From NCBI GenBank assembly GCA_000004985.1, contig GG739132.1: DNA of 7,530 bases, one strand, 5' to 3'. Below the pieces are notes generated by a model that saw nothing but the letters and a program-made list of their open reading frames with translations, did no database searches and was not told the DNA's origin. Made by a program: the position numbers and the translations under genes. Positions 1 to 7,530 of the stretch are shown here, in pieces (position 1 is the stretch's first letter; every line of letters starts with the position of its first letter). The DNA comes from Naegleria gruberi (taxonomy: Eukaryota).

Positions 1-105
1 TAATTCTTTAATTTGCTCTCGTTTCTTCTTACCTGGCAAAAAGCAAACCATCCAACTACAACACTTCAACCACATCCACCATTTCTTTGTAGCTTTCTAT
101 AGAAA

Positions 106-1101
106 ATGTACACTAATGAAAATACCTTTAGCGACAATACTGATGAAGAATTGTTTGACTTTAATTTTGGTTTTCCGTTAACTCATGATGATGAACAAGT
201 ATTGTCAACAACCACTGAATATTTAGGTAGCTTCCAACAACAAAAAGAACATTTACAAGAAGATTTTTCAACAACTTCAGTTGATTCTGTCTTTGTTGAT
301 GATCAAGATTTGGTTGATGGTTTTGCTGCTTTGGAGCAACAAGAAGCTCAACTTATGAGCAATTTGCATGCTTTTGTCTCCATGTATTCTACAGTAGAGA
401 TGGATATTCTTGTTGATCAATATACATTAGCTTCACCAACAACAAGAACTTTCCTCAGTCTTGATCAAAACACTTCTTATGAAAGTGTTGTCGATCAAGT
501 TGTTGTTGGCAAGAAGTCTTCCAAAGACATCTCCAAAGGAAAGTTTGAACACTCTTCGTTTGTGGAAAAGAGAACCAAGAAGGCAAAGAAATCAGAAGAG
601 CAATCGATCAAGAAACGTGCAAAGAAGTCTTCTCCTGATTTATGGGAACACACAAAATTCTCTGAGAGTGCACCTTACTTTGAGATTGTTACTGATGTGA
701 AGGAGATGGAGCTGATTCTTGAAGTAGCTCAAACAAAACGAAGACAAAATGGTCCACTAAATTCAGATAAGAATGATATTGTCCATTACTGTGATTTGTC
801 TTACAAGATTGAACAATTGGATATCAACAAGGTAAATTATGTTTCCCTTAAAGGTTTACTTGATAAGAAGACCATCTACAATGGTGAAAAGTCATCCAAA
901 AGTTATACATGGATTAGATTGAAGGGTACGTCAGAGTACTTCTTTTTATATTGCCAAACTGGCAAAACCAATGCTGTTCATAACATCATGTCAATCAACA
1001 ATACTGAACTGGTCAGTACAAGATCTGACCATCTCTCTAAATATTCTGCAAAATGTTCTGACACTGTCAGAATCATAGGTCCAAAACAAACCAAGTACTA
1101 A
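106..1101 (+). CDS. Hypothetical nuclear protein, 331 aa. Acidic N-terminal region, a basic bipartite-NLS-like stretch (KRTKKAKK...KKRAKK) and a C-terminal globular domain of about 150 aa. Family not recognised.
   Basis: True ATG at 106 with A at -3 (agaaaATGt). Uninterrupted 332-codon frame ending in TAA at 1099-1101. Yeast-like codon preference (TTG, GGT, GCT, AGA, CAA, AAG). GC content is clearly higher than in the flanking intergenic DNA. The CA-rich 5' leader at 40-100 is typical of yeast. Confidence 0.75.
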   Translation: MYTNENTFSDNTDEELFDFNFGFPLTHDDEQVLSTTTEYLGSFQQQKEHLQEDFSTTSVDSVFVDDQDLVDGFAALEQQEAQLMSNLHAFVSMYSTVEMDILVDQYTLASPTTRTFLSLDQNTSYESVVDQVVVGKKSSKDISKGKFEHSSFVEKRTKKAKKSEEQSIKKRAKKSSPDLWEHTKFSESAPYFEIVTDVKEMELILEVAQTKRRQNGPLNSDKNDIVHYCDLSYKIEQLDINKVNYVSLKGLLDKKTIYNGEKSSKSYTWIRLKGTSEYFFLYCQTGKTNAVHNIMSINNTELVSTRSDHLSKYSAKCSDTVRIIGPKQTKY

Positions 1102-1842: not shown

Positions 1843-2853
1843 NNNNNNNNNNNNNNNNNNNNNNNNNNNNNNNNNNNNNNNNNNNNNNNNNNNNNNNNNN
1901 NNNNNNNNNNNNNNNNNNNNNNNNNNNNNNNNNNNNNNNNNNNNNNNNNNNNNNNNNNNNNNNNNNNNNNNNNNNNNNNNNNNNNNNNNNNNNNNNNNNN
2001 NNNNNNNNNNNNNNNNNNNNNNNNNNNNNNNNNNNNNNNNNNNNNNNNNNNNNNNNNNNNNNNNNNNNNNNNNNNNNNNNNNNNNNNNNNNNNNNNNNNN
2101 NNNNNNNNNNNNNNNNNNNNNNNNNNNNNNNNNNNNNNNNNNNNNNNNNNNNNNNNNNNNNNNNNNNNNNNNNNNNNNNNNNNNNNNNNNNNNNNNNNNN
2201 NNNNNNNNNNNNNNNNNNNNNNNNNNNNNNNNNNNNNNNNNNNNNNNNNNNNNNNNNNNNNNNNNNNNNNNNNNNNNNNNNNNNNNNNNNNNNNNNNNNN
2301 NNNNNNNNNNNNNNNNNNNNNNNNNNNNNNNNNNNNNNNNNNNNNNNNNNNNNNNNNNNNNNNNNNNNNNNNNNNNNNNNNNNNNNNNNNNNNNNNNNNN
2401 NNNNNNNNNNNNNNNNNNNNNNNNNNNNNNNNNNNNNNNNNNNNNNNNNNNNNNNNNNNNNNNNNNNNNNNNNNNNNNNNNNNNNNNNNNNNNNNNNNNN
2501 NNNNNNNNNNNNNNNNNNNNNNNNNNNNNNNNNNNNNNNNNNNNNNNNNNNNNNNNNNNNNNNNNNNNNNNNNNNNNNNNNNNNNNNNNNNNNNNNNNNN
2601 NNNNNNNNNNNNNNNNNNNNNNNNNNNNNNNNNNNNNNNNNNNNNNNNNNNNNNNNNNNNNNNNNNNNNNNNNNNNNNNNNNNNNNNNNNNNNNNNNNNN
2701 NNNNNNNNNNNNNNNNNNNNNNNNNNNNNNNNNNNNNNNNNNNNNNNNNNNNNNNNNNNNNNNNNNNNNNNNNNNNNNNNNNNNNNNNNNNNNNNNNNNN
2801 NNNNNNNNNNNNNNNNNNNNNNNNNNNNNNNNNNNNNNNNNNNNNNNNNNNNN
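1843..2853. other. Assembly gap (1011 N).
   Basis: Run of N. Reading frames cannot be related across it. Confidence 1.
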
Positions 2854-2862
2854 CTGACATGA

Positions 2863-3444
2863 TTCTCCAACAACTCAACTCAACAACAGCAACAAGTTCC
2901 TGTACAAATTATACTACCAACCAGTGAGGAAGAACAAGAAAAAGAATTGCCAGTTAACGAACCAATCCAAGTAATACAGTTGGAACGTGATGAGCCAACT
3001 CCTACAACCTTTTCAGAATTTGTCTCCTTCTCCTATGAAAGAGTTGGACTGCCCCAAGATTATACACGAGTAAGCATTATCAAGGATGAGATTGGTTCTG
3101 AACCTGCCCTTGTTAAAACTGAAAAAATTTCCAAGAGCAAACACTCCAAAGTTCTCATTCTTCTCAGCAGTGACAGCAACAAGGCAATTAATTATTCAAT
3201 CAAGGTACTAGAGTCGCCAGTCAAACACACACAAACAGGAATAGTTTCTTCTACTGTGGAATATGAACTGGAGAATATTGAAATGGAAATGATTACTCTA
3301 GAGTTTGAATTTACTCATTCTCTCACCAACAGATGGCTTTCTTATTTCACAACTCCAGAACAGATTCCATTCACTATTGAAATTTATGTTCAATCGAGAA
3401 TTCCAGAACATACCTCAACTCTTTCTATTGAATCAATCAATTAA
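2863..3444 (+). CDS. C-terminal portion (3' exon or gap-truncated CDS) of a protein-coding gene. Gln-rich linker followed by a beta-rich C-terminal domain. Family not recognised.
   Basis: Frame opens at 2863 directly after TGA at 2860-2862 and runs to TAA at 3442-3444 (FSNNSTQQQQQVPVQIILPTSEEEQEKELPVNEPIQ...). The ORF-track start at 2947 is TTG, not ATG. The first in-frame ATG is about 118 codons further in, so the true start must be upstream, in or before the gap. Codon usage matches gene 1. Confidence 0.6.
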   Translation, partial: FSNNSTQQQQQVPVQIILPTSEEEQEKELPVNEPIQVIQLERDEPTPTTFSEFVSFSYERVGLPQDYTRVSIIKDEIGSEPALVKTEKISKSKHSKVLILLSSDSNKAINYSIKVLESPVKHTQTGIVSSTVEYELENIEMEMITLEFEFTHSLTNRWLSYFTTPEQIPFTIEIYVQSRIPEHTSTLSIESIN

Positions 3445-3793
3445 AATTATTTGTGACTCTTTCAGAATTGTGAAATTGAGAAACTTTGTATGAGAACAAT
3501 TAGGATAAATGTAAATTTGCAGTTGTTAACTATCCAACGCCTACTGACCTTTCTTTTTCAATAGCCAAGTTAAAAGTACATGTTTACAACATGTTCCTTT
3601 GCTTACGCTTTCAATTAGAAACCATTCGAAATTCGATGAATATATTATTAGTATGAAACTATTCATTTTAGAAGAATGTTCTCTTAACTTCCCAAGGGCG
3701 CCATAATCCGTTAATTATTAAAACAAAAAACCTTCAAATAACAAAGACATGCTCACCTGTCAACATTCAAAAAAATTCAACAAAAAAAAATCT

Positions 3794-3799
3794 TTTATT
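3794..3799 (-). terminator. AATAAA on the element strand, about 45 nt downstream of the ORF2 stop, followed by T-rich runs. Possible polyadenylation positioning signal.
   Basis: Plus strand reads tttatt at 3794-3799. Weak signal: AT-rich context makes chance matches likely. Confidence 0.2.
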
Positions 3800-3843
3800 G
3801 CAATAATAACGAATCTATTCAGATTCTCTTTGAATTTGTAAAT

Positions 3844-6800
3844 TTACATTGAGTCAATATAATAATATCTATAGGAGCGGCCGACAAAGTTAGAAATGGC
3901 TCCCTGGATCTCAGGCCATTTCTCTGCAATGTCTGGGTATTGTTGTACGTATCCATCTTCGAAGAATGTGGTTCCAGAATGGTGGAAGAAGAGTACATGG
4001 TGATGCTTTTCTGGTCTGAATTGAATATGAGTGAGTTTACACTCTCTCTGATCAAGAATATCAGATATTTTTGACAAGCAAAAGTATCTGGCACTATCCA
4101 GAGCAGGGCATTCATGAATATAGTGATTAAGGTCAGATTCTGTGTTACAATCATGACAGAAACTTTTACCCTCACCAAAATTGATGTGGGCATTTGAAGA
4201 GTTTCTCCAAATATAATATTTAGATTTAGGAGACAAATGGGATTTAAGGTAGCTGACGTTGATAGAGTTCCAATCTAGGTTAGGTATGTGATTGGGGTGA
4301 CTCTCAATCTTGTCAAGCATTAGCCTTAAATGTTGTGAGGTAGTTAACCTCTTATAGTCAAAGATTATAATATCGTTCTTTGTGAGGATATATTGATTAA
4401 AGAGTAGTTTACGGATATCAAAGATTTTAGGTTTCAGAGTTGCATTCTTTGCCAATAAATCAACTTTGATATTTTCCTTATCCTTATGAGCTTCAACTTT
4501 CTTGAATTCATATTCAAGTTTTCTATCCTTAATGGTTTTAAAGAAGGCTTTTTTTAGTGGTAGAAAGTTTCCCTTATATCGTTCTTTGAGAACTTCAATT
4601 GCCACATTACTATCAGTATGGATTTTAATCTTGGAGTCTCTTGGGATAACTTTAGCTGCTGTAATAATANNNNNNNNNNNNNNNNNNNNNNNNNNNNNNN
4701 NNNNNNNNNNNNNNNNNNNNNNNNNNNNNNNNNNNNNNNNNNNNNNNNNNNNNNNNNNNNNNNNNNNNNNNNNNNNNNNNNNNNNNNNNNNNNNNNNNNN
4801 NNNNNNNNNNNNNNNNNNNNNNNNNNNNNNNNNNNNNNNNNNNNNNNNNNNNNNNNNNNNNNNNNNNNNNNNNNNNNNNNNNNNNNNNNNNNNNNNNNNN
4901 NNNNNNNNNNNNNNNNNNNNNNNNNNNNNNNNNNNNNNNNNNNNNNNNNNNNNNNNNNNNNNNNNNNNNNNNNNNNNNNNNNNNNNNNNNNNNNNNNNNN
5001 NNNNNNNNNNNNNNNNNNNNNNNNNNNNNNNNNNNNNNNNNNNNNNNNNNNNNNNNNNNNNNNNNNNNNNNNNNNNNNNNNNNNNNNNNNNNNNNNNNNN
5101 NNNNNNNNNNNNNNNNNNNNNNNNNNNNNNNNNNNNNNNNNNNNNNNNNNNNNNNNNNNNNNNNNNNNNNNNNNNNNNNNNNNNNNNNNNNNNNNNNNNN
5201 NNNNNNNNNNNNNNNNNNNNNNNNNNNNNNNNNNNNNNNNNNNNNNNNNNNNNNNNNNNNNNNNNNNNNNNNNNNNNNNNNNNNNNNNNNNNNNNNNNNN
5301 NNNNNNNNNNNNNNNNNNNNNNNNNNNNNNNNNNNNNNNNNNNNNNNNNNNNNNNNNNNNNNNNNNNNNNNNNNNNNNNNNNNNNNNNNNNNNNNNNNNN
5401 NNNNNNNNNNNNNNNNNNNNNNNNNNNNNNNNNNNNNNNNNNNNNNNNNNNNNNNNNNNNNNNNNNNNNNNNNNNNNNNNNNNNNNNNNNNNNNNNNNNN
5501 NNNNNNNNNNNNNNNNNNNNNNNNNNNNNNNNNNNNNNNNNNNNNNNNNNNNNNNNNNNNNNNNNNNNNNNNNNNNNNNNNNNNNNNNNNNNNNNNNNNN
5601 NNNNNNNNNNNNNNNNNNNNNNNNNNNNNNNNNNNNNNNNNNNNNNNNNNNNNNNNNNNNNNNNNNNNNNNNNNNNNNNNNNNNNNNNNNNNNNNNNNNN
5701 NNNNNNNNNNNNNNNNNNNNNNNNNNNNNNNNNNNNNNNNNNNNNNNNNNNNNNNNNNNNNNNNNNNNNNNNNNNNNNNNNNNNNNNNNNNNNNNNNNNN
5801 NNNNNNNNNNNNNNNNNNNNNNNNNNNNNNNNNNNNNNNNNNNNNNNNNNNNNNNNNNNNNNNNNNNNNNNNNNNNNNNNNNNNNNNNNNNNNNNNNNNN
5901 NNNNNNNNNNNNNNNNNNNNNNNNNNNNNNNNNNNNNNNNNNNNNNNNNNNNNNNNNNNNNNNNNNNNNNNNNNNNNNNNNNNNNNNNNNNNNNNNNNNN
6001 NNNNNNNNNNNNNNNNNNNNNNNNNNNNNNNNNNNNNNNNNNNNNNNNNNNNNNNNNNNNNNNNNNNNNNNNNNNNNNNNNNNNNNNNNNNNNNNNNNNN
6101 NNNNNNNNNNNNNNNNNNNNNNNNNNNNNNNNNNNNNNNNNNNNNNNNNNNNNNNNNNNNNNNNNNNNNNNNNNNNNNNNNNNNNNNNNNNNNNNNNNNN
6201 NNNNNNNNNNNNNNNNNNNNNNNNNNNNNNNNNNNNNNNNNNNNNNNNNNNNNNNNNNNNNNNNNNNNNNNNNNNNNNNNNNNNNNNNNNNNNNNNNNNN
6301 NNNNNNNNNNNNNNNNNNNNNNNNNNNNNNNNNNNNNNNNNNNNNNNNNNNNNNNNNNNNNNNNNNNNNNNNNNNNNNNNNNNNNNNNNNNNNNNNNNNN
6401 NNNNNNNNNNNNNNNNNNNNNNNNNNNNNNNNNNNNNNNNNNNNNNNNNNNNNNNNNNNNNNNNNNNNNNNNNNNNNNNNNNNNNNNNNNNNNNNNNNNN
6501 NNNATGTTCATCTTTAATTGTGAGGGCAGCATTAATAAAGCTATTAAGAGCTTCTTCCTCATTGTCATAATCATTAGATCTTCCACTAAGATAAATTGTG
6601 AAGATGTTAATTGGAATTCCACGACTTTCGAATCGTGTCCATTGTAATGTTCCAGGTACGAGATTATTATTTGTAATATTGCGCTTTCTATAATTATTTA
6701 GAAAGTGCATAGCTGCAGTACCTTTGCAACCTTTTCTTGTATTCATTAATGAGTTAAATAATAGGTACCCTGATCCAGAGTTTTTGACTTCTATTTCTAG

Positions 6801-6977
6801 TTCTGGGGTATTTAAGTGAGTTTCAGTTAAACTCATAAAGTGAATTCCATGTGTTAAACACATGGATTTCAATTCAGGAGTAACTGATTTATGGCTTGCG
6901 TGCTTATATAAACCATTTACGTTATAGCACGCTAGCCTTAAACTTGTTGTGGTTCTACTCAAGGTAGAGTAGATGGA
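3844..6977 (-). CDS. Retrotransposon ORF2 polyprotein: APE endonuclease, then reverse transcriptase (inferred, inside gap 4670..6503), then RNase H, then a CX2CX7HX4C cysteine-rich domain. Interrupted by the assembly gap.
   Basis: Frame open from 6977 (after TAA at 6978-6980) to the gap, then open again from 4669 to TAA at 3844-3846. N-terminus is ..SLRLACYNVNGL..(33 aa)..LTETHL, then KGCKGTAAMHF and INIFTIYLS (APE motifs). After the gap comes KIKIHTD, about 33 aa later AHKDKENIKVDLLAK (RNase H D and H..D motifs), then C150-X2-C-X7-H-X4-C166. There is no ATG in the first 33 codons. The ORF-track 'M' at 6962 is TTG. Confidence 0.85.
4108..4158 (-). other. L1-type cysteine-rich motif CX2CX7HX4C (C150 HDC NTESDLN H YIHE C166 of the 253-aa terminal segment).
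   Basis: Counted directly from the translation. It sits just after the RNase H motifs and before the stop, as in L1-clade ORF2 C-termini. Confidence 0.7.
4425..4669 (-). other. RNase H-like domain of ORF2 (C-terminal half; N-terminal half in gap).
   Basis: IKIHTDIVMAIEVL (I.TDS-type third carboxylate motif) and KKVEAHKDKENIKVDLLAKNAT (AHKG..GNE.aD.lA-type H and D motif). Order and spacing match retroviral and LINE RNase H. Confidence 0.6.
4670..6503. other. Assembly gap (1834 N), presumably hiding the reverse transcriptase domain of ORF2.
   Basis: Run of N flanked on both sides by ORF2 coding sequence on the minus strand. Confidence 1.
6504..6962 (-). other. APE-type (exonuclease-endonuclease-phosphatase fold) endonuclease domain of ORF2, N-terminal part.
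   Basis: The NVNGL and LTETHL motifs are spaced as in L1 ORF2 (NINGL ... QETHL). Downstream GVaIli-like and NIYaP-like blocks are present. Confidence 0.85.
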
Positions 6978-7212
6978 TTAGATGATGAACTTAATTCATC
7001 ATCTAACATATTATTATTACTATTATTAGAATCCTCTAACATCTTATTATTAGGATTATTTAACATTTTGTTATCATTATTAGGTCTAATAATATTTGCT
7101 TGTTTAAGTATTTCAACTATATTATTAATATTGTTATTAGTGAGCATGAGCTGTTGAGTTAAATCTATAATACTTTTTTCAATTTTATCAATTCTATTAT
7201 TTGCATTTGTGA

Positions 7213-7249
<37 letters not shown>

Positions 7250-7530
7250 TACAATAGTAGTAGTTGGTAGTTGTCTAATTGGTTCATCAATAAATACGAG
7301 TTTATCAATAGGTGATAACTCTAATTGAGGAAGATATGGGTGTAATTTACTTTTCCTTTGGATTTTAGAATCCAATATTTGAATAGATGGCTTAAATTTA
7401 AATCCATTTCCACTATGATTTCTTTGTTTATCCTTTAGGGAGATAGATTTCTTGCAAAATTCATTCATTTCATCCATATCATTGTGTACAATTTTAATTA
7501 ATTTGTATTTAGTTGTTCCAGAGCGGTTAG
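6959..7530 (-). CDS. Retrotransposon ORF1 (upstream ORF). Asn-rich, coiled-coil-like. The 5' boundary is uncertain: the first ATG is at 7477, but the frame stays open to the window edge.
   Basis: ATG at 7477-7475. No stop in frame between 7478 and 7528. Ends in TGA at 6961-6959, which overlaps the ORF2 open frame. Product is ...RIDKIEKSIIDLTQQLMLT... plus N12 and N-rich tail. Confidence 0.6.
7214..7249. repeat. (ATT)12 trinucleotide microsatellite, equivalent to (AAT)12 on the minus strand, encoding a poly-Asn run in ORF1.
   Basis: Twelve perfect ATT units read directly from the sequence. They are in frame as AAT codons in ORF1 (NNNNNNNNNNNN). Confidence 0.95.

What the first reader, a model, noticed from the sequence alone, without database searches (positions are those of the whole stretch)
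6957..6980. ORF1 stop overlaps the ORF2 frame (-1 phase). ORF2 has no AUG for 33 codons and no slippery heptamer is present.
ORF1 ends with TGA at 6961-6959. The ORF2 frame opens 19 nt earlier, at 6977, and its first sense codons are S-I-Y-S-T-L(TTG)-S-R-T-T-T-S-LRLACYNVNGL. That places the conserved APE N-terminus exactly where an L1 ORF2 would start, but there is no ATG until codon 34. The overlap (TCTAATCCATCTACTCTACCTTGA) contains no X-XXY-YYZ slippery site, which argues against a classic -1 frameshift. The TTG overlaps the TGA as 'TTGA', a near-cognate analogue of the ATGA/UAAUG stop-start overlaps used for translational coupling in some LINEs. AUG-independent reinitiation of ORF2 has been reported for mammalian L1.
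Basis: partly seen in the sequence, partly recalled or inferred. Interest (0 to 1): 0.5.

Follow-up and report, generated by a model that had tools for sequence, protein, structure and literature searches.

The report
AUG-less UUGA stop-start junction, Naegleria LINE
In a Naegleria gruberi jumping gene (a LINE-type retrotransposon) the second gene has no AUG start and instead begins at a UUG that overlaps the first gene's UGA stop; this junction is conserved in three old lineages and sits in an unusually strong cluster of predicted RNA hairpins, which points to ribosomes restarting at the stop codon rather than to a dead copy.

Summary
On the minus strand ORF1 ends at TGA 6961-6959. The ORF2 frame (-1) opens at 6977, TTG 6962-6960 overlaps the stop as TTGA, the first ATG is codon 34 from the TTG, and there is no X_XXY_YYZ heptamer.

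The element is not a Dictyostelium or L1-clade element. It is a Naegleria gruberi non-LTR retrotransposon with APE, RT, RNase H and Cys/His domains.

The junction is not a defect of this copy:
- A second N. gruberi-type insertion (L006) has an identical junction and an intact 1228-codon ORF2 that starts at the TTG.
- Two other lineages, each only about 53-56% identical in protein, also have TTGA in the -1 phase: N. fowleri (L007) and L009, which has both ORFs intact.
- A fourth lineage has an AUG at the homologous position, next to its ORF1 stop (AUGaaUAA).

The junction is the most structured part of the N. gruberi element (280 nt, z = -9.6). Amino-acid-preserving recodings show the structure is carried by synonymous codon choices in all three UUG lineages, and not in the AUG lineage.

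Best reading (about 0.5): coupled termination-reinitiation at UUGA, assisted by flanking hairpins. A -1 frameshift is the main rival, because L009 carries a canonical A_AAU_UUA heptamer. Nothing has been tested experimentally.

The parts
6959..7528 (-). C-terminal 189 codons of ORF1 plus its TGA stop (6961-6959). The frame is open to the window edge. Full ORF1 is about 566 aa in other copies.
   Evidence: full ORF1 from P0015; no Pfam domain of note
6978..6980 (-). TAA that closes the ORF2 (-1) frame upstream. The frame opens at 6977.
6959..6962 (-). UUGA: ORF2-frame UUG (6962-6960) overlapping the ORF1 UGA (6961-6959). This is the proposed restart site, with A at -3.
   Evidence: the same tetranucleotide in the same phase is found in L006, L004/L007 and L009
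6504..6962 (-). Readable 5' part of ORF2 (APE endonuclease N-terminus, with the CYNVNGL and LTETH motifs).
   Evidence: relatives carry PF03372/PF14529
6977..7007 (-). H1: predicted 14-bp hairpin, loop UAA. Its 3' end lies 15 nt before the stop codon.
6954..6973 (-). H2: predicted 7-bp hairpin (UCUACUC/GAGUAGA). The UUGA sits at the boundary between the loop and the 3' arm.
6887..6943 (-). H3: predicted G+C-rich hairpin of about 19 bp that encloses the CYNVNGL codons. It starts 15 nt after the stop codon.
   Evidence: a hairpin at the same place in L007 and L009
6824..6886 (-). H4: predicted interrupted hairpin of about 26 bp (core CCAUGUGUU/AACACAUGG) over the MCLTHGIH codons.
4670..6503 (.). 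Run of N hiding most of ORF2 (rest of APE, RT, start of RNase H). It is 568 nt shorter than the same stretch of L006.
3844..4669 (-). C-terminal part of ORF2 (RNase H, then a Cys/His motif CHDC...HYIHEC), ending at TAA 3846-3844. It is 100% identical to N. gruberi NAEGRDRAFT_82331.
3791..3843 (-). 53-nt 3' UTR ending ...GCAATAAAAGA. It holds a small hairpin, GAATCT-GAAT-AGATTC (3826-3811), that is also present in L009. It is followed by a T run that belongs to the target site.

Best explanation
The window carries a Naegleria gruberi non-LTR retrotransposon whose bicistronic RNA expresses ORF2 by coupled termination-reinitiation.

Proposed mechanism:
1. A ribosome finishes the roughly 566-codon ORF1 at UGA.
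2. It is not fully recycled, moves 2 nt, and restarts at the overlapping near-cognate UUG (UUGA, with A at -3).
3. This makes a separate ORF2 protein whose N-terminus lies 11 residues before the catalytic CYNVNGL motif.
4. A cluster of hairpins flanks a span of about 33 nt centred on the stop codon, roughly the size of one ribosome. H1 ends 15 nt before the stop and H3 starts 15 nt after it. The hairpins are proposed to hold the post-termination ribosome at the site, as the downstream structure does in SART1. They may compensate for the weak start codon, and the weak codon keeps ORF2 protein scarce.

Shown: the sequence anatomy; conservation of the junction; intactness of ORF2 in sister copies; the excess of predicted structure.

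Inferred: that translation restarts here; that UUG is the codon used; that the hairpins act on the sense RNA.
For: 1. The junction is not a lesion. L006 is an independent insertion with different flanks. It matches the window 100% over 711 nt across the junction and has an intact 1228-codon ORF2 from the TTG.
2. TTGA in the -1 phase recurs in N. fowleri (L004/L007) and in L009, which has both ORFs intact. These lineages are 53-56% identical to each other in APE protein.
3. The distance from UUG to the Cys codon is 10-11 codons in all three UUG lineages. UUG is the only near-cognate start codon they share, and in N. fowleri it is the only one present at all. All have A at -3.
4. The fourth lineage (L001/L008) has AUGs at the homologous position (third AUG 11 codons before Cys), 2 nt before the ORF1 UAA (AUGaaUAA). 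This resembles the calicivirus junctions AUGucUGA and AUGA (PMC2699510, Table 2).
5. In N. gruberi and L009, a synonymous change of the last ORF1 codon (CCU to CCA, CUU to CUA) would create AUG, yet U is kept.
6. No slippery heptamer is present in N. gruberi or N. fowleri. No -1 re-pairing rule fits all three P-site codons CCU, CUU and AAU.
7. Structure, N. gruberi: in a sliding scan of 4.3 kb, seven consecutive 120-nt windows around the stop have z from -3.6 to -6.3. The 280-nt fold is -89.1 kcal/mol against -44.9 +/- 4.6 for shuffles, z = -9.6.
8. Structure, amino-acid-preserving recoding of ORF2 codons 1-60: N. gruberi 0/400 recodings fold as well as the native sequence, N. fowleri 1/400, L009 6/300, and the AUG lineage 301/400.
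9. Hairpins occupy similar positions in the three UUG lineages, and RNAalifold recovers H3 and H4.
10. Literature. SART1 uses UAAUG coupling and needs downstream structure. Human L1 ORF2 translation is AUG-independent. Calicivirus restart tolerates near-cognate codons at up to about 45% of wild type, still with Met-tRNAi (PMC5972666, PMC10275272, PMC11485995, PMC3894237).
Against: - There are no expression data of any kind.
- Reinitiation after a roughly 566-codon ORF normally needs a dedicated element, and no calicivirus-type UGGGA motif was seen by eye upstream. Complementarity to Naegleria 18S rRNA could not be tested.
- L009 carries a canonical A_AAU_UUA heptamer in the ORF1 frame with the -1 frame open.
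- N. fowleri has a partial site, U_CAA_AAU.
- The hairpins are near-perfect palindromes, and the antisense strand folds equally well (-89.0 kcal/mol). The structure might therefore act on antisense RNA or on DNA.
- The pairings are not in the same register between lineages, and the covariation term is not favourable.
- The structure excess is modest in N. fowleri and L009.
- Only three independent UUGA lineages exist. T before TGA in all three has a chance probability of roughly 0.05-0.15.
- The N. fowleri copy is itself decayed, with frame breaks in ORF1 and ORF2.
Confidence: 0.5

Rival explanations
1. Programmed -1 ribosomal frameshifting, or a single-tRNA P-site slip provoked by the slowly decoded UGA, makes an ORF1-ORF2 fusion protein. 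The hairpins would be the stimulators.
For: - ORF2 is in the -1 phase with a short overlap in all three UUGA lineages.
- L009 has a canonical A_AAU_UUA heptamer in frame, 9 nt before the stop, with the -1 frame open.
- N. fowleri has A_AAU|UGA, where tRNA-Asn could re-pair on AAA.
- Strong structure lies downstream.
- -1 frameshifting is the usual reading of gag-pol-like overlaps in retroelements (PMC5009743).
Against: - In N. gruberi, the best-attested young element, no heptamer exists. No codon in the 19-nt overlap allows reasonable re-pairing (CCU to ACC, CUA to UCU, ACU to UAC).
- The geometry is wrong. H2 contains the stop itself, and H3 starts 15 nt after the stop, which is beyond the usual 5-9-nt spacer for any site inside the overlap.
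- In N. fowleri only three -1-frame codons are open before the UUG.
- A canonical heptamer in a 46-nt AT-rich overlap is expected by chance about 1 time in 8 (own estimate).
- The sister lineage with AUGs needs no frameshift.
Confidence: 0.2
2. The hairpin cluster is an internal ribosome entry element that places ribosomes on a non-AUG codon independently of ORF1 termination, comparable in principle to the mouse L1 inter-ORF IRES or to dicistrovirus IGR IRESs.
For: - An exceptional, local excess of structure spans the ORF2 start.
- The candidate start codon lies in a hairpin loop.
- IRES-driven ORF2 translation is reported for mouse L1, and non-AUG A-site initiation for IGR IRESs (PMC3592465 abstract, PMC3894237).
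Against: - Most of the structure lies downstream of the start, inside the coding sequence.
- There is no Rfam match.
- This model does not explain why the ORF1 stop and the ORF2 start coincide within 0-2 nt in all four lineages, including the unstructured AUG lineage.
Confidence: 0.1
3. ORF2 of this copy is simply not translated: the element is a decayed relic and the missing ATG is a mutation.
For: - The window copy cannot be checked across the N run, and its two readable ORF2 parts are in different frames.
- The N. fowleri copy is decayed.
- The N. gruberi gene models of these loci are fragments.
Against: - An identical junction sits in front of an intact 1228-codon ORF2 in L006, and a homologous one in front of an intact 1221-codon ORF2 in L009.
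- Insertions are near-identical (0 mismatches in 711 nt, 3 in 887 nt) but have different flanks. A 5'-truncated copy has a 16-bp target-site duplication. Both point to recent activity.
- The same A-to-T change arising three times after the death of each copy is very unlikely.
Confidence: 0.05

Closest known systems
SART1 (Bombyx mori telomeric non-LTR retrotransposon): ORF1/ORF2 UAAUG translational coupling (Kojima, Matsumoto & Fujiwara 2005, as described in PMC5972666, PMC10275272 and PMC3894237)
   Same: - A bicistronic LINE RNA with no inter-ORF spacer.
- The stop and start codons overlap.
- RNA structure downstream of the junction is important in SART1; here it is only predicted.
   Different: - The restart codon here is UUG, not AUG.
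- The overlap is UUGA in the -1 phase, rather than UAAUG in the +1 phase.
- There is also a strong hairpin upstream.
- Nothing has been tested experimentally.
- The host (a heterolobosean amoeba) and the element clade are different.
Calicivirus / influenza B / hypovirus termination-reinitiation (junctions AUGA, AUGucUGA, UAAUG; PMC2699510 Table 2; PMC5972666)
   Same: - The stop of a long upstream ORF and the restart codon lie within a few nt of each other.
- Restart is position-driven and, in experiments, tolerant of near-cognate codons.
- Output is low, which suits a protein needed in small amounts.
   Different: - In those systems the natural codon is AUG, and the cis element (TURBS) lies upstream and pairs with 18S rRNA.
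- Here the natural codon is UUG.
- The conspicuous structure flanks the site on both sides, and no UGGGA-type motif was seen.
Human LINE-1 ORF2 translation (Alisch et al. 2006, as summarised in PMC11485995 and PMC5972666)
   Same: - ORF2 translation depends on unconventional, AUG-independent reinitiation after ORF1.
- ORF2 protein is made rarely.
   Different: - Human L1 has a 63-nt spacer and a natural AUG.
- This element is not of the L1 clade: it has an RNase H domain, its RT is closer to R2-type RTs in the PDB, and its ORF1 has no L1 ORF1p domain.
Retroviral / LTR-retrotransposon gag-pol -1 frameshift (e.g. the A_AAU_UUA type; PMC5009743)
   Same: - The downstream ORF is in the -1 phase with a short overlap.
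- There is downstream RNA structure.
- One sister lineage (L009) has A_AAU_UUA.
   Different: - There is no slippery site in this element or in N. fowleri.
- The spacing of the structures does not fit.
- A sister lineage uses AUGs.
Dictyostelid NLTR-A / NLTR-B elements (PMC5006619)
   Same: APE-RT-RNase H non-LTR elements of AT-rich amoebae. This was my first guess, based on the poly-Asn tract.
   Different: - The organism is Naegleria (100% match to an N. gruberi protein).
- No tRNA gene lies nearby.
- No sequence relationship was shown.

Membership tests
APE-type non-LTR (LINE) retrotransposon | N-terminal apurinic/apyrimidinic-like endonuclease in ORF2 | tested here: met
   The window fragment has the CYNVNGL and LTETH motifs. 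The window fragment alone gave no Pfam hit. Relatives with 55-59% identity hit PF03372/PF14529, and P0013 has a weak PF14529 hit.
APE-type non-LTR (LINE) retrotransposon | Reverse transcriptase domain downstream of APE | tested here: met
   Masked by N in the window. The identical-family copy P0013/L006 has RVT_1 at E = 4.8e-28 and matches R2 RTs in the PDB at 1e-18.
APE-type non-LTR (LINE) retrotransposon | Insertions with variable 5' truncation and target-site duplications, and no LTRs | tested here: met
   L002 is 5'-truncated inside RT and flanked by the 16-bp duplication TTTTTTAGTGCTAAAT. Three copies share the same 3' end and have unrelated flanks.
   phmmer of P0013 against the PDB returns only R2-type RTs and no L1 ORF2p chain at E<=1e-3. 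ORF1 has no Transposase_22 hit. An RNase H domain is present. No phylogeny was made, so the true clade (I/Tad/Ingi-like?) is open.
Coupled termination-reinitiation (stop-start overlap) | Upstream stop and downstream start overlap or lie within a few nt | tested here: met
   UUGA in the window, L006, L007 and L009; AUGaaUAA in L001/L008.
Coupled termination-reinitiation (stop-start overlap) | Restart codon is AUG | tested here: not met
   UUG in three lineages and AUG only in the fourth. Near-cognate restart is known only from mutants of viral systems (PMC5972666, PMC10275272).
Coupled termination-reinitiation (stop-start overlap) | Cis-acting RNA element near the junction (upstream TURBS pairing with 18S rRNA, or SART1-type downstream structure) | tested here: inconclusive
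   There is a strong local excess of predicted structure. There is no significant covariation, the strand is not resolved, and 18S complementarity is not testable here.
Coupled termination-reinitiation (stop-start overlap) | ORF2 translation depends on termination of ORF1 at that place; a separate ORF2 product | not testable with these tools
   Needs reporters, proteomics or ribosome profiling.
-1 programmed ribosomal frameshift | Slippery heptamer X_XXY_YYZ in the upstream frame, inside the overlap | tested here: not met
   None in the window/L006 or L007. Present in L009 only (A_AAU_UUA).
-1 programmed ribosomal frameshift | Stimulatory structure 5-9 nt downstream of the shift site | tested here: not met
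   H2 contains the stop codon. H3 begins 15 nt after the stop, so it is more than 15 nt from any codon of the overlap.

The most novel reading that the evidence does not exclude
A naturally AUG-less stop-start junction (UUGA) has been kept by selection for a long time in a small Naegleria-specific LINE clade. An AUG is one synonymous change away. The weak restart codon works because the terminating ribosome is boxed in by hairpins placed about one footprint apart (15 nt on either side of the stop). This would be a structure-assisted form of termination-reinitiation that does not need an AUG, and possibly not Met-tRNAi.
Probability: 0.3. Interest if true: 0.65.

Novelty: new variant of a known kind. 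Interest (0 to 1): 0.5.

Why it matters
How LINEs translate ORF2 from a bicistronic RNA is still unsettled. For human L1 the evidence for AUG-independent restart comes from engineered mutants.

Here nature supplies the mutant. The element family looks recently mobile, ORF2 has no usable AUG, the junction is conserved across deep lineages, and a sister lineage with AUG and no structure serves as a built-in control. That makes the question directly testable with a few reporter constructs: UGA moved or removed, UUG changed to AUG or to a non-cognate codon, and hairpins opened and restored.

It also warns annotators that LINE ORF2s, here in Naegleria, can be missed or truncated by ATG-based gene calling. 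The N. gruberi and N. fowleri gene models at these loci are fragments or spurious intron fusions.

Tried and rejected
- **Dictyostelium TRE/NLTR element.** This was my first guess from the AT-richness and the poly-Asn tract. It was rejected by a 100% match to N. gruberi NAEGRDRAFT_82331. No tRNA gene is in the window.
- **Collection scans.** The search for related loci with the APE profile in genome contigs, viral contigs and metagenome contigs found no relatives. All relatives came through protein clusters and the look-up of encoding contigs.
- **N. gruberi reference copies.** P0002 and P0015 are not on record in the contig index, so the other N. gruberi reference copies could not be read.
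- **ORF1 cluster look-ups.** They added nothing new.
- **Nucleotide homology with the AUG lineage.** I considered that the window's +1-frame ATGATGAAT-TAA (about 7003-6992) and the strings TAATCCA and CTCTACC are remnants of an L001-type AUG start destroyed by a 14-nt insertion that created hairpin H1. This is suggestive but untestable at this divergence, and I did not rely on it.
- **Frame mismatch across the N run as evidence of decay.** Rejected as uninformative, because the N run is not length-true.
- **An oligo(T) 3' tail.** Rejected. The T run is part of the target-site duplication.
- **Rfam.** No family reached threshold, only sub-threshold hairpin-like miRNA matches.
- **Sense versus antisense folding.** It does not discriminate between the strands.
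- **Covariation across three lineages.** It is not significant, and the pairings are in different registers.
- **Other ideas.** Splicing across the junction (as in the gene model P0015), transcriptional slippage (no homopolymer run in the N. gruberi overlap) and readthrough (the ORF1 frame hits TAA six codons after the UGA) were considered and dropped.
- **Primary papers.** Kojima 2005 and Alisch 2006 are not held, so I cited them through reviews.
Full report
**1. The observation**

The feature lies on the minus strand.
- ORF1 reads ...DDELSSSSNPSTLP and stops at TGA 6961-6959.
- The -1 frame is closed by TAA 6980-6978 and opens at 6977.
- It then reads SIYST-L(TTG 6962-6960)-SRTTTSLRLACYNVNGL..., so the two frames overlap by 19 nt and TTG plus the stop form TTGA.
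- The first ATG of the ORF2 frame is codon 34 counted from the TTG. Starting there would remove the CYNVNGL motif, which holds the catalytic Asn of APE-type endonucleases.
- No X_XXY_YYZ heptamer lies in the ORF1 frame within 300 nt of the stop.

- The ORF1 frame is open to the window edge. ORF1 is about 566 aa in other copies.
- Only 158 ORF2 codons can be read before a run of 1834 N.
- Any -1 overlap on a UGA necessarily gives an NUG codon, so the TTG alone proves little.

**2. What the element is**

I first suspected a dictyostelid element because of the AT-richness and the poly-Asn tract. That was wrong.
- The C-terminal part of ORF2 (4669-3847) is 100% identical to the N. gruberi predicted protein NAEGRDRAFT_82331.
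- The full ORF2 of the family (P0013, 1228 aa) has an APE domain (PF14529, weak), RVT_1 (E = 4.8e-28) and RNase H (E = 4.3e-11), followed by a Cys/His motif.
- Against the PDB it matches R2-type reverse transcriptases (1e-18) and no L1 ORF2p chain at E<=1e-3.
- ORF1 has no L1 ORF1p domain.

It is therefore an APE-type LINE with an RNase H domain and not an L1-clade element. The exact clade was not determined.

The family is small. A profile search of 1.84 billion representative proteins found only 24 hits at E<=1e-3 and 6 at E<1e-30. The named relatives are all from N. gruberi and N. fowleri; the other relatives come from unnamed metagenome and read-archive contigs.

The family behaves like a mobile LINE.
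- Three N. gruberi-type copies (window, L006, L002) share the 3' end ...GCAATAAAAGA and then have unrelated flanks.
- L002 is 5'-truncated inside RT and is flanked by a 16-bp target-site duplication.

**3. Is the missing AUG a lesion of this copy?**

No.
- L006, from an ENA metagenome contig, is an insertion at another locus. It matches the window at 711 of 711 nt across the junction and at 884 of 887 nt at the 3' end.
- Its ORF2 runs uninterrupted for 1228 codons from the same TTG. The gene caller prints that TTG as M.
- ORF2 integrity in the window copy itself cannot be judged. The N run is 568 nt shorter than the same stretch in L006, and the two readable parts are in different frames.

**4. 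Conservation beyond the family**

Four lineages with a readable junction were recovered. They are roughly equidistant, at 48-56% identity in APE protein.

| Lineage (source) | ORF1 end | ORF2 frame across the junction | Phase | State of the copy |
|---|---|---|---|---|
| N. gruberi (window, L006) | CTA CCT TGA | ACC TTG AGT | -1 | L006 has an intact ORF2 |
| N. fowleri (L004 = L007, reference genome) | CAA AAT TGA | AAA TTG AAT | -1 | decayed, with frame breaks |
| L009 (Logan SRR26782605) | TTA CTT TGA | ACT TTG AGT | -1 | both ORFs intact (ORF1 >=523 codons, ORF2 1221 codons from TTG) |
| L001 = L008 | GAT GAA TAA | ATG ATT ATG ATG AAT AAT | +1 | ORF2 is broken by a stop and frame change soon after the APE domain |

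Sources.

Further points on the junction:
- In the three UUG lineages the UUG lies 10-11 codons before the Cys of CYN(V/I)NGL.
- In the AUG lineage the third AUG lies 11 codons before that Cys, and the ORF1 UAA follows 2 nt after it (AUGaaUAA).
- UUG is the only near-cognate start codon shared by the three lineages between the frame opening and the Cys codon. In N. fowleri it is the only one present at all. All three have A at -3.
- In N. gruberi and L009 a synonymous change of the last ORF1 codon would create AUG, yet U is kept.
- L009 also has an ATG 8 codons after the TTG (R-M-A-CYNINGL). That ATG lies inside a predicted stem.

The common theme in all four lineages is that the ORF1 stop and the ORF2 start coincide within 0-2 nt. 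This is the signature of coupled termination-reinitiation, as in feline calicivirus (AUGA), RHDV (AUGucUGA), and influenza B, hypovirus and SART1 (UAAUG) (PMC2699510, Table 2; PMC5972666).

**5. RNA structure**

*N. gruberi.*
- I scanned a 4.3-kb composite of the element (window 7530-6504 plus L006 712-4000) in 120-nt windows.
- The only long run of strongly negative z-scores is at the junction. Seven consecutive windows have z from -3.6 to -6.3 and cover window 7050-6751. The next strongest stretch is three consecutive windows (z -3.0 to -3.7) far downstream in ORF2; the only other window below -3 stands alone.
- The 280-nt fold (7030-6751) is -89.1 kcal/mol against -44.9 +/- 4.6 for dinucleotide shuffles, z = -9.6.
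- It consists of four adjacent hairpins:

| Hairpin | Window coordinates | Description |
|---|---|---|
| H1 | 7007-6977 | 14 bp |
| H2 | 6973-6954 | 7 bp; UUGA at the loop/3'-arm boundary |
| H3 | 6943-6887 | about 19 bp, G+C-rich; encloses the CYNVNGL codons |
| H4 | 6886-6824 | about 26 bp, interrupted |

- H1 ends 15 nt before the stop codon and H3 begins 15 nt after it. The free span of 33 nt is about one ribosome footprint centred on a ribosome with UGA in the A site. That last point is my inference from commonly quoted footprint sizes.

*Test that keeps the protein.* Because the region is coding, I recoded ORF2 codons 1-60 with synonymous codons drawn from each element's own usage.

| Lineage | Native MFE (kcal/mol) | Recoded, mean +/- sd | Recodings folding at least as well |
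|---|---|---|---|
| N. gruberi | -51.4 | -25.7 +/- 5.1 | 0/400 |
| N. fowleri | -37.9 | -24.8 +/- 4.2 | 1/400 |
| L009 | -37.3 | -27.4 +/- 4.1 | 6/300 (strongest of eight 60-codon segments) |
| AUG lineage | -22.9 | -25.2 +/- 3.3 | 301/400 |

*Whole-junction folds against dinucleotide shuffles.* z = -9.6 for N. gruberi, -3.25 for L009, -2.9 for N. fowleri and +0.14 for the AUG lineage.

*Position of the hairpins.* They are similar in the three UUG lineages. The upstream hairpin ends at -16, -16 and -12 relative to the first base of the stop. H3 starts at +18, +20 and +23, and H4 at +75, +82 and +78. RNAalifold recovers H3 and H4 as consensus helices.

*Weaknesses.*
- The pairings are in different registers between lineages and the covariation term is unfavourable.
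- The antisense strand folds just as well (-89.0 kcal/mol), so the strand on which the structure acts is not established.
- No Rfam family matches.
- The contrast between UUG and AUG lineages rests on three lineages against one.

**6. Mechanism**

*Best-supported: termination-reinitiation.*
- The ribosome terminates ORF1 at UGA and restarts 2 nt further on at UUG, making a separate ORF2 protein.
- The flanking hairpins would limit diffusion of the post-termination ribosome and offset the weak codon. This would parallel SART1, where structure downstream of the UAAUG is required (PMC5972666, PMC10275272).
- The weak codon would keep ORF2p scarce, which is thought to be advantageous (PMC3894237).
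- Precedents for non-AUG restart come from mutants. Calicivirus restart tolerates near-cognate codons at up to about 45% of wild type and still uses Met-tRNAi. Human L1 ORF2 translation is AUG-independent (PMC5972666, PMC10275272, PMC11485995).
- I put this reading at about 0.5.

*Rival 1: -1 frameshift (about 0.2).*
- It cannot be dismissed, because L009 carries a canonical A_AAU_UUA 9 nt before its stop with the -1 frame open.
- N. fowleri has A_AAU|UGA, where a P-site slip onto AAA is conceivable.
- N. gruberi has nothing comparable. The structure spacing does not fit, and no single re-pairing rule covers CCU, CUU and AAU.

*Rival 2: IRES-like entry (about 0.1).* It would explain the structure but not the coincidence of stop and start in all four lineages.

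*Rival 3: dead copy (about 0.05).* It is refuted for the family and left open only for this one masked copy.

**7. Novelty and verdict**

Stop-start overlaps in LINEs and AUG-independent ORF2 translation are both known. What I did not find in the papers I searched is:
- a natural, conserved UUGA junction with no usable AUG;
- in apparently active elements of a poorly described Naegleria LINE clade;
- coupled to an exceptional hairpin cluster that is absent from the AUG-bearing sister lineage.

I rate it a new variant of a known kind, of moderate interest (0.5). It mainly offers a clean natural system for testing how ORF2 is reached.

Noticed in passing
window 1843-2853 and 4670-6503: There are two long runs of N. 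The second is not a true assembly gap. The N. gruberi protein model NAEGRDRAFT_82331 extends 117 aa into it, and the same stretch is 2402 nt in copy L006 against 1834 N here. The readable ORF2 parts on either side are in different frames.
   Followed up: partly
window 3782-3790 (T run) and L002 3655-3675 / 5245-5265: The element has no poly(A) tail. It ends ...GCAATAAAAGA and is followed by T6-T9. In the 5'-truncated copy L002 the T run is part of a 16-bp target-site duplication (TTTTTTAGTGCTAAAT), which suggests insertion at T-rich targets.
   Followed up: partly
window 3811-3826 (minus strand); L009 about 5235-5255: A small 3'-UTR hairpin, GAATCT-GAAT-AGATTC, is conserved between the N. gruberi element and the 53%-identical L009 lineage. 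It may be the RT recognition element of the 3' end.
   Followed up: no
window 103-1098 (+) and 2863-3441 (+): Two plus-strand open frames (332 and 193 codons) lie next to the element's 3' end. They have no meaningful Pfam match and may be one host gene split by the first N run. They were not identified.
   Followed up: no
window 7195-7235 (minus strand), ORF1: A run of 12 Asn codons (AAT)n lies inside ORF1, followed by a predicted coiled-coil-like segment (NRIDKIEKSIIDLTQQL). ORF1 of all lineages lacks known Pfam domains, and the lineages are barely alignable with each other.
   Followed up: partly
L007 (N. fowleri VFQX01000066.1) 4693-7422; P0015 (N. gruberi): Reference gene models at these loci are artefacts of ATG- and intron-based calling. 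N. fowleri FDP41_009026 starts at the internal Met (MCLQH...). N. gruberi NAEGRDRAFT_60001 fuses ORF1 and ORF2 pieces through spurious introns.
   Followed up: partly
window about 6992-7003 (minus strand, +1 frame): ATGATGAAT-TAA resembles the ORF2 start ATGATGAATAATCC of the AUG lineage (L001/L008). The loop and 3' arm of hairpin H1 (14 nt) look like an insertion relative to that lineage. This could be a trace of how the UUGA arrangement arose, but it is speculative.
   Followed up: no
L009 1560-1566: A canonical -1 slippery heptamer, A_AAU_UUA (the type used by Rous sarcoma virus, from memory), lies in the ORF1 frame 9 nt before the UUGA of this sister lineage, with the -1 frame open.
   Followed up: partly
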